Shown: positions 54,001 to 60,000 of the stretch, in pieces
How the letters are laid out: every line of letters begins with the position of its first letter
How positions within the stretch are numbered: the first letter of the stretch is position 1
Source of the DNA: Diadema antillarum
Lineage: Eukaryota
Direction of reading: 5' to 3'
DNA: 64,000 nucleotides
NCBI RefSeq assembly: GCF_040938485.1
Contig: NW_027270918.1
Span: 4,030,001-4,094,000 of the forward strand
Program-made: the position numbers

Positions 54001-57000
54001 CCTGAATTCGTACTGGATCTGTGGACGCACCCCAGGTTTGTTCTCGGCGACTCTCAGAAAGGACTTATACAGCCGGAGGACTTGGAGTTGAAGCTTGCTG
54101 TGTCGTGCCATCCTCAGAAATGTAATCTTCAGTGCATGGTGGCCAACAGACAGATGCTGGAAATGGCTGTAGAACACACAGAAAATAAAATAATTACCCG
54201 GTATATTAATTAACAGTCCTGTACCTTTTCATATACACTTTCACATTGCAAGAAGCAACTCCTGGAGATCTTCTAACAGTTTAAAACAAGAAATCTTAGT
54301 GGTCTGGCTTATCAATATTAGATAGGAATTGACACATTTTCAAAAACACAATCTACTGACAAGTCATGTGATAAGTATGGACATCGACATGGTATGACCT
54401 TCAATCATAGATCTTCATAGAAGATGGGGTGTTGCCAACCTGACCCTCCCTCCCCCCCCCCCCCCCCCCCAATTTATGATGATGCCTTGGATCATCTAAG
54501 ATTCCCTGAGAAGAAGCAGCTTGGGCCAGTTGGGTGTGCAACTCCGACACCACACAAGGCGCGCCCAGCAAGGATAAGGGGGTACGGTTGGGCGAAGCCA
54601 CAACGGGACACACGGCCGGTGACCGCGGGCGAGCAGGCGGGCGCAGGCGGGCCGGACGAGACGATCAGGACGGCTGTACCCATCACAATACAGAGCTGAG
54701 GCAGGGAGAGAAATTTGCGCTTTCTGGAGAACCGCAGTTACCTCGTTTGAAGTACCGAATTTCTTCTGTGTCTGACTAAATTAGGATCGCCTCTGCCTGC
54801 CGAACTGTCACCGATTACCAGGGAATAATTACGGCTTCGTTATCCTGAAATTTGAGGTGATTCCAGCATCCGTCGCAGTGATGCCCGTAATGCAGTAACT
54901 GACCCCACGGCATAAATGCAGTTACACGTGCCTTATTCAGTCCCAGACGCTAGTATTCGAGTTTGTATACAATTTAACGTTACTGTTCCCCTTGTGAGCT
55001 GTGCAGCTGTGCTGCTTCATGTCATGCTTCAATGAATTGTGCTCGACGTCTAGCCTAGACTAGCTAGAGCCTTGTGTTTTTTTCTTTGTCAGATAGTCAC
55101 TATTGTATTACAGCTTCATCAGGTCACTCCGCTCCATTCCATACAACCGCCAATTTTACCAGCAATTATTAATAGGCAGCATCTGTTTCATATTAATAGT
55201 CATACTATTTTAGCGAGTGGTATTATGATAATTGTGTAGTGGTAGCAACACCTACTCACTAATTAATTAAGGTCGTATACACTATAGGAAATGAAGACAT
55301 CGAGCCACTCCGAGCGTACATTGTAGATTGGATGGTTTATTAGAGGCTCTGCACCAAGTTGTGGGAGCCAGTCACTGATGTGACGACGGTGAAATTGTGA
55401 TACACTCTGCCTTTTTACACAAAGAGCAGTCGATATTTATACATGTACAGGAGGTGACTCACCTCTCTGGTATCAGACAGTGAAACAAACAAGTGGTCAG
55501 TGTTGTCAAGCGGTTACCTTGGAATTGTTTTGAAGAGAACCAGCGGGGAGGATTAATGACCCACAGAGAGAGGAGGAGAGAGAGTGAGAGTGCATGTGTG
55601 GAAGACGGAGATCAGAGGTCGGAGCGGAGAGAAGGAGATTGTGGAGGAGAAAGAAGCAGAGAAAAGTTGAGCTGCTACAGTAGCTCCCCCCTAGTGAGCT
55701 TCTCGAAAGGTGAAGGAGAGATGTGAACGATAGAAAATGTAAAAGTATGCAGCGAGGCTAGAGTACATGTAGAAATTATAAAACGTACTGAATGGTTTGG
55801 AAAACGTACATGCTAACATTCGTTCAAATGTTAAATTTCGTGAACCGTTGTAAGGCATGAAACGCGCTATGTAATCGTATACATGACAATGCCAAAGTGA
55901 ACGTGGTTCGAGAAATGCAAACGAACAAATGTCAATTATGCTGAATCGTTTCAAAGCAATGAACTTATCAAATTGTATGCGTCATTTACAATTAAAATGC
56001 ATGGGATTTGGTAAACGTATGAACAATTGGAATTTGCACACAATAATTCTGTCAATTTACATGTTTTCGTTTCAAGATGACGATACAAAAATAATCACTG
56101 GCAGTTTGACGCGTGTCGTTGCAGGCAGTGTTTATAAACCGTGTTATCGCATATCGAAAGGCAACATAGAAATTTAGAGAATTAAAGCATGATCATCAGA
56201 TCATAGTACAATTGAAATGTGCAAGGTGATGCTTACTTGACAGACATGATAAAGTAATCACGATACAAACGGTGAAATGAGTGTCCAACACGAATGTCCT
56301 GAATATGACTGAGTCTTTTTATCGCTTGCGATTATAACGTGCTCGGGTAAGTCCGGCTATCGCGGTTGACGAAGACTGTAGTGAGTAGGACGTGGCGTGG
56401 GCGAGAGTCGGGATGAACGGATGCGATGTCGATGTCAGATTGTCAGCTATCAACGGTCTCTCGACAGGACAGTGAGTCGCCTGGAGATGTCGTGTTGATA
56501 GTCGGCAAGCGCGAGATGGCCAGCGGCAGCAGCGAGTCGTGCCGGTAGAAGCCGATGCGCGATGTGTTCGAGGTCGAGCCAAAGTTAGGCGGAGGGCGAT
56601 CGAGAGTTCGTGATGGTCGATGCGGCAACGGTCGGCGACGTCGAGTCGTATCGTGGCGTTGCGAGAGTTGAGCGATTCGTACCGCGGTGTGTCGTATCGT
56701 GTCGAAGCGACAGCTGTTGAGCAATTCGTATCATATCGTGTCGAGAGTTCGAGCGATTCGAATGGCGTAGTGCGGTTGAAGGCGGAGACAATGCTGGCAG
56801 GTGTCGGTGTCAGTGCGGCGATTAGGCGTTCGTGGATGTCGATCGTGCGTGCCTGCCGAAGGAACCGTCGAGGCGTGCGGCGGGTGAGTAGACGGCGGGC
56901 GTCATCATGGCGGGCAAAAACATGCAGCGTGCTCGTTGCGATGGCATGTTCGAAATCGATTGGCGTTGGCGTGGCGGGCGATGTCGTCGTCGACTGCGTT

Positions 57001-60000
57001 GTGACGTACAAAAAATGAGCGTATTTGCCGGCGTAAGTGATGGCAGGTCGAAATCGTCGAATAAATGTCAGTTCATCAGGGCGCGATGAATTTCCCCGGC
57101 AGTAAGCGTAACATGGTTCAGAGAACCAGTTGAGTAGGGGAGTAGCTCATGACTAGAGAGGCGTGGTTGAAATGTCGATATGTGTGTCGATGAAATGCGT
57201 GCACGAGATCGAGGGAAAGTCCTTTAGGTGAATGTATTGAGGGAGTGGCCGCGTGCTGGTCGAGTGCATGTGGCAGCGCCGCAGCGGGCCGGTGATGAGA
57301 AAAAGGAGCGATCCCGTTGATGCAAAGTTGAGTGGTGCATATCGAAAAGCAAATTACAGTGATGCAGAAAATCGGCTCCGAGAAAGGGGAGATAGACTTA
57401 GGCAATCAGGAATATCCATCTCAAGGTGCAGAGAGGCAGTAGTGTCGGCAGCCATTGTTGAGGCAAGCTCGGGCGTGGTTGGAGTTGATGTGTCAGTCAT
57501 GATTGCTGCGTTGTTGTTCGTAATACGGGGTCACCAATTTAGCGAGTGGTATTATGATAATTGTGTAGTGGTAGCAACACCTACTCACTAATTAATTAAG
57601 GTCGTATACACTATAGGAAATGAAGACATCGAGCCACTCCGAGCGTACATTGTAGATTGGATGGTTTATTAGAGGCTCTGCACCAAGTTGTGGGAGCCAG
57701 TCACTGATGTGACGACGGTGAAATTGTGATACACTCTGCCTTTTTACACAAAGAGCAGTCGATATTTATACATGTACAGGAGGTGACTCACCTCTCTGGT
57801 ATCAGACAGTGAAACAAACAAGTGGTCAGTGTTGTCAAGCGGTTACCTTGGAATTGTTTTGAAGAGAACCAGCGGGGAGGATTAATGACCCACAGAGAGA
57901 GGAGGAGAGAGAGTGAGAGTGCATGTGTGGAAGACGGAGATCAGAGGTCGGAGCGGAGAGAAGGAGATTGTGGAGGAGAAAGAAGCAGAGAAAAGTTGAG
58001 CTGCTACACTATTATTAAACTCAAATAAAACTGGTGTAAACTTTCTACTAGTGTCAGACAGTGGTAGAATCTACCAGTATCTAGGCAAAATGTGTACAAT
58101 ATAGGCTTGTCTTTGATTGACCTATGTTGATATGAATCTGTTGTATTGTGATTTAAAAAGGAAGATAAATCTTGGGCTATAGGTATAATGGTGTAAAGAC
58201 AGTGACTCTGGGCCTACTGAAAATCATACCACATACTACTGCATGATACTACCTGCCACAATGAACTGATATGTAGAAAAAAAAACATGATATGGAATTC
58301 AATCAATGTCATGGAACTCATCTCGACAAAATTGCCAGCCTTTACAAATGCTGGGATAGTCTGTAATTTTCATGTCATCTTTGCAATGATTTAAGTACCG
58401 GTACCCGGTACTGTCATACCTGGTAAGGTGTGTGTTGCCAAGATAGATCTTAATCTGCTGCACCTGCAGAACTTCAGAAGATTCTGCCTCAAAATCCCCT
58501 CACTAGCAGTGTGACATCTTGTGCCATGAATAATGATTGTCATCACATGTGTTTGGCTGTTTAATTGAGACAGCATTTTTTTTCTGCTTCCTTTGCTTCT
58601 ATATCATAGATCAAAAGACAAAGTAATGGCATCATTCAACTACCCAGTGCTCCAGTCATTTGTGTCAGTTGTTGTTCCCTTGACACTCATGATACTGATA
58701 GTTTACTCCGGGATCTTTGATCATATCGAAGTGGAGACAGGATATGACCACTATGCTGAGGCAGCTGATTCCACGCTTGGACCGATCCAATTTCCAGCCA
58801 GCATAAAGATGCCTGCAAACGCCCTGGTCAACATAGGATACCCCCTGGTGGCGCTGTACTGGGGGGTGTACACCTTTATGTTTAACAGCAAGCTGACTTC
58901 CATCCAGAACCTTGATGCCTATCTGTTGTATGTCATGGTCTGGATGATTTTCCTGTACGGGCCAGTACAATTCGTCAGGATCGTGACGCAGACGCGAGAG
59001 TGGGCCTTTCTGGATCAGTGGGTCACCCTCCCCATCTTCGGCTGGGTGATGGTGATCAGCAAGACGATGATGACAGAGTGGCAGCCGAAGGTGGCCGCGC
59101 TCACCATGGCAGCATCCATCATGAGCTACAATCTCGTCTTCACAATTGAGCATGGCTTTGAAGTGGCCCTCTTGCCTCACGTTGTGTATGCCATATCGTC
59201 TGGCTGGAGTGCCACAAAGAAATACACACCACCTGGTTACATGAGGAACTTTGTGGCAGCTGTCTTGACTTGTGCTGGGTTTGTGCTTCTCAAAGTGGCT
59301 GACTTTCATCTCGCTCAGTACAAACCCTTCCAGGACCTAACCGGTCACTTTTGGTCCAAGGTGTGTGATGTTCTGCAGGCCCACTATGTGCTTAAGCTGT
59401 TTTTTAGCATAAGTGTTGTGAGAGGAGCACGAAATCTGGCAAAGAAGTTGTTCTGAAAGTGAAAAATATGCTTTCATTCTTTTTTAACCTCTTTTTATGC
59501 GTGATGGTACTTTGTTGATATTTTGCAATACTCTGTTTAGGTTTTTATTTTTATTTTTTTCCTTTTTTCATTCTCTTTGTAGTGATGTACTGTTTAGTAG
59601 GGTCTACCCTACCCAAGTGTGAGTTGCAGTGTTGGGTTTTTGTGTGTGTGGATAAAAAAAAGTTTTTTCCATGAATAGAAAACAAAGTCAAAGTGCCAAA
59701 CCTCATTACAAATGAATGAGATGAACATTGCTGTTTACATTCCACTGCATGAACATTCATGTATTTTAACAGAATAATCTAACAGAGCGATTCAAAATTA
59801 ATTTTAGTTGAAGCACTCGTCTTGATGTCAGTGTCACTGAAAGTCAGATGGACTGCCGAGGAAGAGAGGTAAACAGTAGTACATGACAAAGTCTATATTC
59901 CTGTGAGGATTCATCTTACAATGACCAAGTGCTTTCAATCACTGTCAAATATGGTTGTCCATTTTTTCTCTCTCTGCTGATACTCTTAAAATATGTCAAA

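What the first reader, a model, noticed from the sequence alone, without database searches (positions are those of the whole stretch)
55209..58008. Very young non-autonomous LTR retroelement with complete cis signals but no gag/pol
It has 471-bp LTRs with no difference visible by eye, an exact TSD, a tRNA-Trp PBS, a PPT (AGGGGGGAG), and TATA and poly(A) signals in the right order. The 1858-bp interior has no protease, RT, RNase H, integrase or zinc-knuckle motif. It must be mobilised in trans by an active Ty3/gypsy-type helper, so this looks like a currently active parasite-of-a-parasite pair. At 2.8 kb it falls between typical TRIMs and LARDs, and such elements are poorly described in marine invertebrates. 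This is the best candidate in the window for an undescribed system.
Basis: partly seen in the sequence, partly recalled or inferred. Interest (0 to 1): 0.72.

Follow-up and report, generated by a model that had tools for sequence, protein, structure and literature searches.

The report
Young non-coding LTR retroelement, sea urchin
A structurally complete but protein-less LTR retroelement sits just upstream of a sea-urchin gene; it is real and recently inserted, but it is an ordinary example of a well-known kind of dependent mobile element.

Summary
Two 471-bp direct repeats (55209-55679, 57538-58008) differ at 0 of 471 positions and are flanked by CTAT on both sides.

The element reads on the minus strand:
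- The LTR carries TATAAA at position 239 and AATAAA at position 339, on that strand only.
- An 11-nt tRNA-Trp-type primer binding site lies 1 nt after the 5' LTR.
- The only purine run of 8 nt or more in the interior, AGGGGGGAG, lies 4 nt before the 3' LTR.

The 1858-bp interior is non-coding:
- None of its 16 stop-free pieces of 50 aa or more reaches a Pfam cut-off.
- The longest open stretch has no protein relatives and no codon periodicity.

The host is a Diadema-type sea urchin.

Three things are not supported or could not be tested here: a Ty3/gypsy helper, current activity, and copy number. No eukaryotic DNA collection was available, and the window holds no second copy.

Two details differ from the finding. 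The ends are TG...AA, not TG...CA. The size "gap" between TRIM and LARD is a naming artefact, and non-autonomous LTR elements are already reported as abundant in sea urchins.

Verdict: a new member of a known kind, of modest interest.

The parts
55205..55208 (.). Target-site duplication, left copy (CTAT)
   Evidence: Identical to 58009-58012. A 5-bp reading, CTATT, is also possible.
55209..55679 (-). 3' LTR in element orientation, 471 bp. TATAAA at 55441..55436 and AATAAA at 55341..55336.
   Evidence: 0 of 471 mismatches to the other LTR. Motif positions 239 and 339 come, shifted by the 2329-bp offset.
55684..55692 (-). Polypurine tract AGGGGGGAG, 4 nt upstream of the 3' LTR
   Evidence: Only purine run of 8 nt or more on the sense strand of the interior.
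55680..57537 (-). Interior, 1858 bp, non-coding
   Evidence: - 16 of 16 stop-free pieces of 50 aa or more have no Pfam family at cut-off.
- No protein relatives.
- No Rfam family at E up to 1 apart from two chance-level rows outside or at the edge of the interior.
- No codon periodicity.
55693..56330 (-). AT-rich 3' half of the interior (GC 0.37, CpG o/e 1.36)
   Evidence: measured on 55680-56330. One 200-nt window folds with z about -3.
56331..57525 (-). GC-rich, C-rich/G-poor (sense strand), CpG-rich 5' half of the interior. It holds a short degenerate repeat block at 56645-56772 and many TCGAC(A) motifs.
   Evidence: GC 0.55 and CpG o/e 1.54, measured on 56331-57537. TCGAC is seen 14 times against 1.5 expected. 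Repeat families D2 and D3.
57526..57536 (-). Primer binding site TGGTGACCCCG, 1 nt after the 5' LTR
   Evidence: An 11-nt identity to the complement of a tRNA-Trp 3' end printed in 10.1101/400127.
57538..58008 (-). 5' LTR in element orientation, 471 bp. It starts TGTAGC and ends GCTAAA. TGAGTCA at 57790..57784, TATAAA at 57770..57765, AATAAA at 57670..57665.
   Evidence: The predicted U5 hairpin next to the PBS is in a fold with z -2.68.
58009..58012 (.). Target-site duplication, right copy (CTAT)

Best explanation
This is a non-autonomous, non-coding LTR retroelement of 2800 bp on the minus strand of a Diadema-type sea-urchin chromosome. It lies about 600 bp upstream of a TMEM187-like gene and in the opposite orientation.

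**Shown**
- Two identical 471-bp LTRs.
- A 4-bp (or 5-bp) target-site duplication.
- A promoter-like TATA and a poly(A) signal 100 nt apart inside the LTR. They divide it into U3 (about 270 nt), R (about 95 nt) and U5 (about 105 nt).
- A tRNA-Trp-type primer binding site next to the 5' LTR.
- A polypurine tract next to the 3' LTR.
- An interior with no coding signal.

**Inferred from the established LTR-retrotransposon cycle**
- The element is transcribed from U3/R of the 5' LTR to R/U5 of the 3' LTR.
- Its RNA is packaged by Gag of a related autonomous element elsewhere in the genome.
- It is copied by that element's reverse transcriptase, from a tRNA primer at the PBS and from the PPT.
- It is inserted by that element's integrase, which makes the short duplication.
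- The insertion is young. With 0 differences in 471 sites, the 95% upper bound on LTR-LTR divergence is about 3/471 = 0.64% (my arithmetic).

The superfamily of the helper is unknown.
For: - LTR identity is 471 of 471 and the TSD is CTAT on both sides.
- The repeat is far beyond chance.
- TATAAA and AATAAA are each present once, in the right order, on the minus strand only.
- The PBS starts 1 nt after the LTR and matches a tRNA-Trp 3' end over 11 nt. The same 18-nt string is used as a PBS primer for chicken endogenous proviruses in PMC5029493 (passage).
- The PPT is the only purine run of 8 nt or more in a G-poor sense strand.
- 0 of 16 stop-free pieces of 50 aa or more reach a Pfam cut-off, and none hits a retroelement family even at E up to 10 or 1.
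- Word-indexed protein searches gave 0 hits. phmmer against 1.84 billion representatives gave 0 hits.
- The longest ATG-started ORF on the sense strand is 55 codons (derived).
- The longest open stretch has no codon-position bias: chi-square p 0.75 and period-3 ratio 0.7. The same measures give 26.5, 10.5 and 5.7 for three real coding stretches of the window.
- The R-U5-PBS leader folds better than 100 of 100 shuffles (z -2.68).
Against: - There is only one copy in the 64 kb. No helper, solo LTR or second copy could be sought, because no eukaryotic DNA collection was available. 'Family' and 'mobilised in trans' are therefore inferences.
- The U5-side end is AA, not the canonical CA.
- The PBS complementarity stops after 11 nt and was compared with a human tRNA-Trp printed in a paper, not with the host's own tRNA.
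- The PPT is 4 nt away from the LTR rather than abutting it.
- The longest open stretch (275 codons) is matched or exceeded in only 11 of 1000 dinucleotide shuffles of the interior, so a very decayed or orphan reading frame is not strictly excluded.
- Perfect LTR identity can also come from gene conversion or assembly polishing.
Confidence: 0.85

Rival explanations
1. A single dead copy. An autonomous LTR element inserted here and then lost its gag-pol region by a deletion in place, so it never moved as a short element.
For: Only one copy is seen. The family cannot be surveyed with the tools at hand.
Against: - No coding remnant of any kind is left in 1858 bp. 0 of 16 pieces have a retroelement family and there is no periodicity.
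- The two halves of the interior are far longer than usual untranslated leaders and trailers (general knowledge).
- A deletion would have had to occur within the short time in which the LTRs gathered 0 differences.
Confidence: 0.07
2. The element codes for an unrecognised, fast-evolving protein (an orphan Gag-like product) in the long open stretch. That would make it a Gag-only (TR-GAG-like) element rather than a non-coding one.
For: The 275-codon open stretch is on the sense strand. Only 11 of 1000 shuffles of the interior give one as long.
Against: - The stretch holds no Met codon.
- It has no Pfam family at cut-off.
- It has no relatives among 5.8 billion clusters by word search or 1.84 billion representatives by phmmer.
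- It has no codon periodicity (p 0.75).
- Its residue make-up is what a C-rich, G-poor strand gives when translated.
Confidence: 0.04
3. Assembly artefact or plain segmental duplication. The 471-bp direct repeat was made by mis-joining reads or by a local tandem duplication, not by retrotransposition.
For: Perfect identity of the two copies is what a duplication artefact would also give.
Against: An artefact does not explain any of the following:
- a TSD at the outer edges;
- a tRNA-complementary site exactly at one inner edge and the interior's only polypurine run at the other;
- a TATA and poly(A) signal pair on the matching strand;
- the 5-of-6 terminal inverted repeat of the LTR.
Confidence: 0.02
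4. Two independent solo LTRs of one family that happen to flank 1.86 kb of host DNA.
For: The interior differs sharply in CpG content from the LTRs (o/e 1.53 against 0.60).
Against: - Each solo LTR would carry its own TSD. Here the outer flanks match each other.
- The PBS and PPT sit at the inner edges.
- The interior also differs from the host flanks (CpG o/e 0.70 and 0.38).
Confidence: 0.02

Closest known systems
Mid-size non-coding non-autonomous LTR retrotransposons ('long TRIMs', the 1.5-4 kb group of PMC13570524; TRIM and LARD are the named extremes)
   Same: Identical LTRs, PBS and PPT are present and there are no coding domains. The size of 2.8 kb falls in the range for which that paper says 'no terminology exists' although many trustworthy families lie there. 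In that paper, many families show no detectable likeness to an autonomous partner (passages).
   Different: Those families are from a plant (sugar beet). There is no sequence relationship. Our LTRs (471 bp) are longer than those of classical TRIMs (recalled: about 100-250 bp).
Mouse ETn/MusD, VL30/MLV and MaLR/MERV-L pairs
   Same: These are non-coding or nearly non-coding LTR elements that rely on proteins of a coding-competent partner (PMC6466679 passages). MaLR elements are of similar overall size and LTR length (recalled, not from a call).
   Different: They are vertebrate retrovirus-derived lineages. For ETn and MaLR the partner is known and shares LTR or flanking internal sequence. Here no partner is known.
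Non-autonomous Troyka elements of sea urchins (Kojima 2025, PMC12440569)
   Same: The host group is the same: Echinoidea, including 2 Diadematoida genomes. [quoted passage not shown]
   Different: Troyka has CG...CG termini (CGCCA...TGGCG in most) and 3-bp TSDs. This element has TGTAGC...GCTAAA and a 4- or 5-bp TSD.
LTR retrotransposons with non-canonical termini (for example the TGTT and AACA subfamilies, PMC5659011)
   Same: One LTR end departs from TG...CA.
   Different: Those are coding plant elements with other dinucleotides. Only the title and the start of the abstract were seen (search listing).
Plant retrozymes
   Same: Non-coding interior, LTRs, PBS, PPT and a 4-bp TSD (features recalled; the reviews appear only as listing rows).
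   Different: Retrozymes carry hammerhead ribozymes in their LTRs. Rfam found no ribozyme in 54500-58700 at E up to 1.

Membership tests
LTR retrotransposon (structural definition) | Two long direct terminal repeats in the same orientation | tested here: met
   471 bp each, 0 of 471 mismatches.
LTR retrotransposon (structural definition) | Target-site duplication of 4-6 bp | tested here: met
   CTAT on both sides, or CTATT. The 4-6 bp range is as stated in the abstract of PMC12440569.
LTR retrotransposon (structural definition) | LTR termini 5'-TG...CA-3' | tested here: not met
   TG at the 5' end but AA at the 3' end (TGTAGC...GCTAAA). The terminal inverted repeat matches at 5 of 6 positions. 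This is a variant, not a disproof, since other non-canonical families are in print (listing).
LTR retrotransposon (structural definition) | Primer binding site complementary to a tRNA 3' end just inside the 5' LTR | tested here: met
   11 nt including the complement of CCA, 1 nt after the LTR. The comparison was with a tRNA-Trp printed in 10.1101/400127. The host tRNA was not available.
LTR retrotransposon (structural definition) | Polypurine tract just inside the 3' LTR | tested here: met
   AGGGGGGAG, 4 nt from the LTR, is the only purine run of 8 nt or more in the interior.
Autonomous LTR retrotransposon | gag and pol (PR, RT, RNase H, IN) reading frames | tested here: not met
   0 of 16 stop-free pieces of 50 aa or more have any such Pfam family. 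No relatives. No periodicity.
TRIM | Total length under 1 kb (or under 1.5 kb in the wider use) | tested here: not met
   The element is 2800 bp. Thresholds are as quoted in PMC13570524.
LARD | Total length over 4 kb | tested here: not met
   The element is 2800 bp. Threshold is as quoted in PMC13570524.
TR-GAG | Retains a Gag reading frame | tested here: not met
   No Gag, zinc-knuckle or capsid family was found. The longest ATG-started sense ORF is 55 codons.
Troyka (non-autonomous forms) | CG...CG termini and a 3-bp TSD | tested here: not met
   The element has TG...AA termini and a 4- or 5-bp TSD, against the definition.
Retrozyme | Hammerhead ribozyme in the LTRs | tested here: not met
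   No ribozyme family at E up to 1 in 54500-58700.
Ty3/gypsy (Metaviridae)-dependent element | LTR ends, PBS or leader shared with an autonomous Gypsy element of the same genome, or Gypsy-type coding remnants | not testable with these tools
   No coding remnants are present. No eukaryotic genome collection is on hand and there is no LTR-type pol gene in the window.

The most novel reading that the evidence does not exclude
This may be one copy of an undescribed family of mid-size, wholly non-coding LTR elements that was amplifying recently in diadematid sea urchins. The family would have:
- an unusual TG...AA terminal signature;
- an interior that is CpG-island-like (o/e about 1.5 in a genome region at 0.54) and studded with TCGAC(A) motifs;
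- an interior acquired from a source other than its helper, and possibly carrying a function of its own, such as packaging or regulatory sites acting on the neighbouring TMEM187-like gene.
Probability: 0.25. Interest if true: 0.4.

Novelty: new member of a known kind. Interest (0 to 1): 0.25.

Why it matters
If it belongs to a multi-copy family, it would be a handy marker of recent retrotransposition in Diadema, through insertion polymorphisms near genes. It would also be a clean case for asking which cis signals suffice for an LTR element to ride on a helper.

It adds one data point to the view that non-autonomous LTR elements form a size continuum and are under-annotated in animals. It opens no new kind of system. 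Helper-dependent LTR elements are long known in mammals and plants and have already been reported from sea urchins.

Tried and rejected
1. **Whole-frame Pfam scan.** I then sent each stop-free piece on its own.
2. **Pfam weak rows.** These were an Fn3-like domain (E 0.025, 15.3 bits against a cut-off of 39) and a nematode peptide family (E 0.0076, 16.7 bits against 27). Both lie below cut-off and were rejected as chance.
3. **Rfam.** Two rows far below gathering score, mir-146 and SurA, lie outside the interior or at the LTR edge. Rejected.
4. **Exact look-up of element ORFs.** 0 of 10 element ORFs are in the 15-billion-protein collection, so it gave no copy-number proxy.
5. **Protein searches.** The 275-codon stretch and the antisense 132-aa ORF gave nothing.
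6. **RNA-fold z-scores.** I scanned 27 windows on both strands. Values ranged from -3.5 to +2.9, with no strong or extended signal. The C-rich core folds worse than its shuffles.
7. **Plus-strand orientation.** Rejected. That strand has no TGG-start site after the left LTR, no TATAAA or AATAAA in the LTR, and no purine run before the right LTR.
8. **Troyka, retrozyme, TRIM, LARD and TR-GAG membership.** Each was rejected on a defining feature (see membership test).
9. **Paper search.** 'non-autonomous LTR' plus 'sea urchin' found 0 papers. A later search reached the Troyka paper by another route.
10. **Not used.** No structure prediction was run, because the sequence shows no coding signal.

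
Full report
**1. What is there**

The window is 64,000 bases with four N runs (814 N in all). I left the N runs as they are.

At an offset of 2329 bases, positions 55209-55679 and 57538-58008 are identical at 471 of 471 positions. Identity breaks at once on both sides. The repeat finder reports the same pair.

- A 28-nt LTR start occurs twice in the window, against 0.00 expected from 100 shuffles.
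- A sensitive blastn (word size 7) of the LTR and of the interior against the whole window finds nothing else. All other hits are 40 nt or shorter and have E of 0.002 or more.
- The outer flanks carry CTAT at 55205-55208 and at 58009-58012. Because the next base is also shared, a 5-bp duplication with 470-bp LTRs is an equally valid reading.

**2. Orientation and cis signals**

The element reads on the minus strand.

- **LTR ends.** In that orientation the LTR begins TGTAGC and ends GCTAAA. This is an imperfect terminal inverted repeat (5 of 6) with a canonical TG start and a non-canonical AA end.
- **Signals inside the LTR.** TGAGTCA lies at position 219, TATAAA at 239 and AATAAA at 339, each once. 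None of them occurs on the plus strand of the LTR. This splits the LTR into roughly 270 nt of U3, 95 nt of R and 105 nt of U5. That split is inferred from the usual spacing of such signals and is not measured.
- **PBS.** One base after the 5' LTR comes TGGTGACCCCG (57536..57526). A preprint on engineered tRNAs prints the complement of a tRNA-Trp, CCA included (10.1101/400127, passage read). The first 11 letters are the same as here and only 1 of the next 7 is. A second paper uses that 18-nt string as a primer for chicken endogenous proviruses (PMC5029493, passage read). The host's own tRNA-Trp could not be examined, because ARAGORN finds 0 tRNA genes in the window.
- **PPT.** At the other inner edge, AGGGGGGAG (55692..55684) is the only purine run of 8 nt or more on the sense strand of the 1858-nt interior. 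It lies 4 nt before the 3' LTR. The sense strand is G-poor, which makes the run more striking.
- **Leader fold.** The predicted R-U5-PBS-leader RNA folds more stably than 100 of 100 shuffles (z -2.68), with a U5 hairpin beside the PBS. This is a single-sequence prediction with no covariation support.

**3. The interior does not code**

- No ATG-started ORF on the sense strand exceeds 55 codons (derived). The longest ORFs listed by the bacterial-code tool start at TTG or lie on the antisense strand.
- All 16 stop-free pieces of 50 aa or more, in six frames, were scanned one by one against Pfam. None reaches a curated cut-off and none touches a protease, RT, RNase H, integrase, capsid or zinc-knuckle family. 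The only rows are two chance-level ones.
- The longest open stretch (275 codons, sense strand, no Met codon) has no relative in the word-indexed search or in a full phmmer pass over 1.84 billion representatives (0 hits at E up to 0.001). The antisense 132-aa ORF also has none.
- That open stretch is longer than composition alone usually gives: 11 of 1000 dinucleotide shuffles of the interior reach it. But it shows no codon-position bias at all (chi-square p 0.75, period-3 power ratio 0.7). Three real coding stretches of the same window give ratios of 26.5, 10.5 and 5.7. I read it as an accident of a C-rich, G-poor strand.
- Rfam finds no ribozyme or other RNA family. No gene of the element is recognisable, so there are no breaks to count.

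**4. Make-up of the interior**

The interior has two halves. The half next to the PBS is GC-rich (0.55), with strong strand asymmetry. The half next to the PPT is AT-rich (GC 0.37).

Both halves are CpG-rich. The o/e is 1.53 overall, against 0.60 in the LTR, 0.70 and 0.38 in the flanks, and 0.54 in the window.

The GC-rich half is enriched for TCGAC(A): TCGAC is seen 14 times against 1.5 expected. It also holds a short block of degenerate 35-46-bp repeats at 56645-56772.

I have no tested explanation for the CpG excess. It fits a lineage that has not been exposed for long to methylation-driven decay, or an interior of different origin from the LTRs. Both are inferences.

**5. Host and neighbourhood**

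The window is not human.

- Its intronless GPCR (24317-25693) and its TMEM187-like ORF (58626-59456) fall in 90% clusters with named proteins of Diadema setosum and D. antillarum. They are 98.2-99.6% identical to them.
- The element lies about 600 bp upstream of the TMEM187-like coding region, on the opposite strand.
- A D. setosum isoform aligns from 58608 onward, and its first residue must come from an exon further upstream. The element may therefore sit in a first intron or in the promoter. This could not be settled.
The neighbouring genes were handled as single uninterrupted ORFs.

**6. How it most likely works**

- **Shown:** the anatomy of an LTR retroelement with every cis signal and no coding capacity.
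- **Inferred from the established replication cycle of LTR retrotransposons:**
  - transcription from the 5' LTR;
  - packaging, tRNA-primed reverse transcription and integration by proteins of an autonomous element elsewhere in the genome;
  - a 4-5-bp duplication made at integration.
- **Age:** with 0 differences in 471 sites, the 95% upper bound on LTR-LTR divergence is about 0.64% (rule of three, my arithmetic). Turning that into years needs a Diadema substitution rate that I did not measure. Gene conversion or assembly polishing could also produce identity.

**7. What could not be shown**

- **Helper type.** TSD length, the TG start and a tRNA-Trp PBS do not tell the superfamilies apart. 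The only RT in the window is an RVT_1 fragment at 39994-40686 (E 3.3e-22). By its motifs I take it for LINE-type (recalled criterion). It is 15 kb away and unrelated to the element.
- **Copy number, solo LTRs, polymorphism and expression.** None could be tested. The DNA collections on hand hold phages, plasmids, E. coli and prokaryotic genomes. Exact look-ups of 10 element ORFs in the protein collection found 0.
- **Supplements.** The supplements of PMC12440569, with its sea-urchin element sequences, were closed. They may bear on whether this family is already deposited.

**8. Comparison with what is known**

- Passages of PMC13570524 give the usual thresholds: TRIM under 1 kb (or under 1.5 kb), LARD over 4 kb. 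They state that no term exists for 1.5-4 kb although many sound families lie there, and that many families have no traceable autonomous partner. The 'between TRIM and LARD' size is a gap in naming, not in biology.
[quoted passage not shown] Troyka has CG...CG ends and 3-bp TSDs, which this element does not have, so it is not Troyka.
- Passages of PMC6466679 describe ETn/MusD, VL30/MLV and MaLR/MERV-L as dependent/helper pairs. By size and layout the element most resembles MaLR-like elements (sizes recalled), with no claim of kinship.
- TRIMs in animals are in print for ants and tapeworms (titles and abstract starts only).
- A search for 'non-autonomous LTR' with 'sea urchin' found 0 papers. 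A search on S. purpuratus, nonautonomous, LTR retrotransposon and Repbase found 6 papers, none on such a family judging by title. So I found no description of this particular family, within those searches only.

**9. Verdict**

The core reading, a young non-coding LTR retroelement, is well supported. The gypsy helper, current activity and 'undescribed system' are not supported by anything testable here.

It is a new member of a known kind. Two small oddities are worth a line in an annotation: the TG...AA ends and the CpG-rich interior.

Noticed in passing
window 55680-57537: The interior of the element is CpG-rich: o/e 1.53, against 0.54 for the window and 0.60 for its own LTRs. Its GC-rich half is enriched for TCGAC(A) (TCGAC 14 seen against 1.5 expected). 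A block of degenerate 35-46-bp repeats lies at 56645-56772.
   Followed up: partly
window 57440-57745 (minus strand) and 56009-56208 (minus strand): Two sense-strand stretches fold better than their shuffles. The R-U5-PBS leader has z -2.68, with a U5 hairpin beside the PBS. A 200-nt stretch in the AT-rich half has z -3.0. Both are single-sequence predictions only.
   Followed up: partly
window 58608-59456: A TMEM187-like gene lies on the plus strand, about 600 bp from the element's 5' LTR and divergent from it. A D. setosum isoform implies an upstream first exon, so the element may lie in that gene's first intron or promoter.
   Followed up: partly
window 24317-25693: An intronless 458-aa GPCR lies in a 2-kb GC-rich stretch (GC 0.50). 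D. setosum names it adrenocorticotropic hormone receptor-like.
   Followed up: partly
window 33235-34404 (minus strand): A 389-aa ORF with weak C2H2 zinc-finger and FAR1 DNA-binding-domain rows, all below Pfam cut-offs. It may be a transposase-derived or zinc-finger gene. The exact sequence is not in the protein collection.
   Followed up: partly
window 39994-40686 (minus strand): A reverse-transcriptase fragment (RVT_1, E 3.3e-22). By its motifs it is probably a non-LTR (LINE) remnant (recalled criterion). It has no link to the LTR element.
   Followed up: partly
window 716-815, 11513-11612, 50617-50716: Three copies of an interspersed repeat of about 100 bp at 74-81% identity, probably a SINE- or MITE-like family. 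A second two-copy repeat lies at 3914-3976 and 61949-62011.
   Followed up: no
window 10171-10386, 22716-22920, 36983-37112, 42536-42798: Four runs of N (814 bases in all), left as they are. A (CA)n microsatellite lies at about 10790-10860, next to the first run.
   Followed up: no
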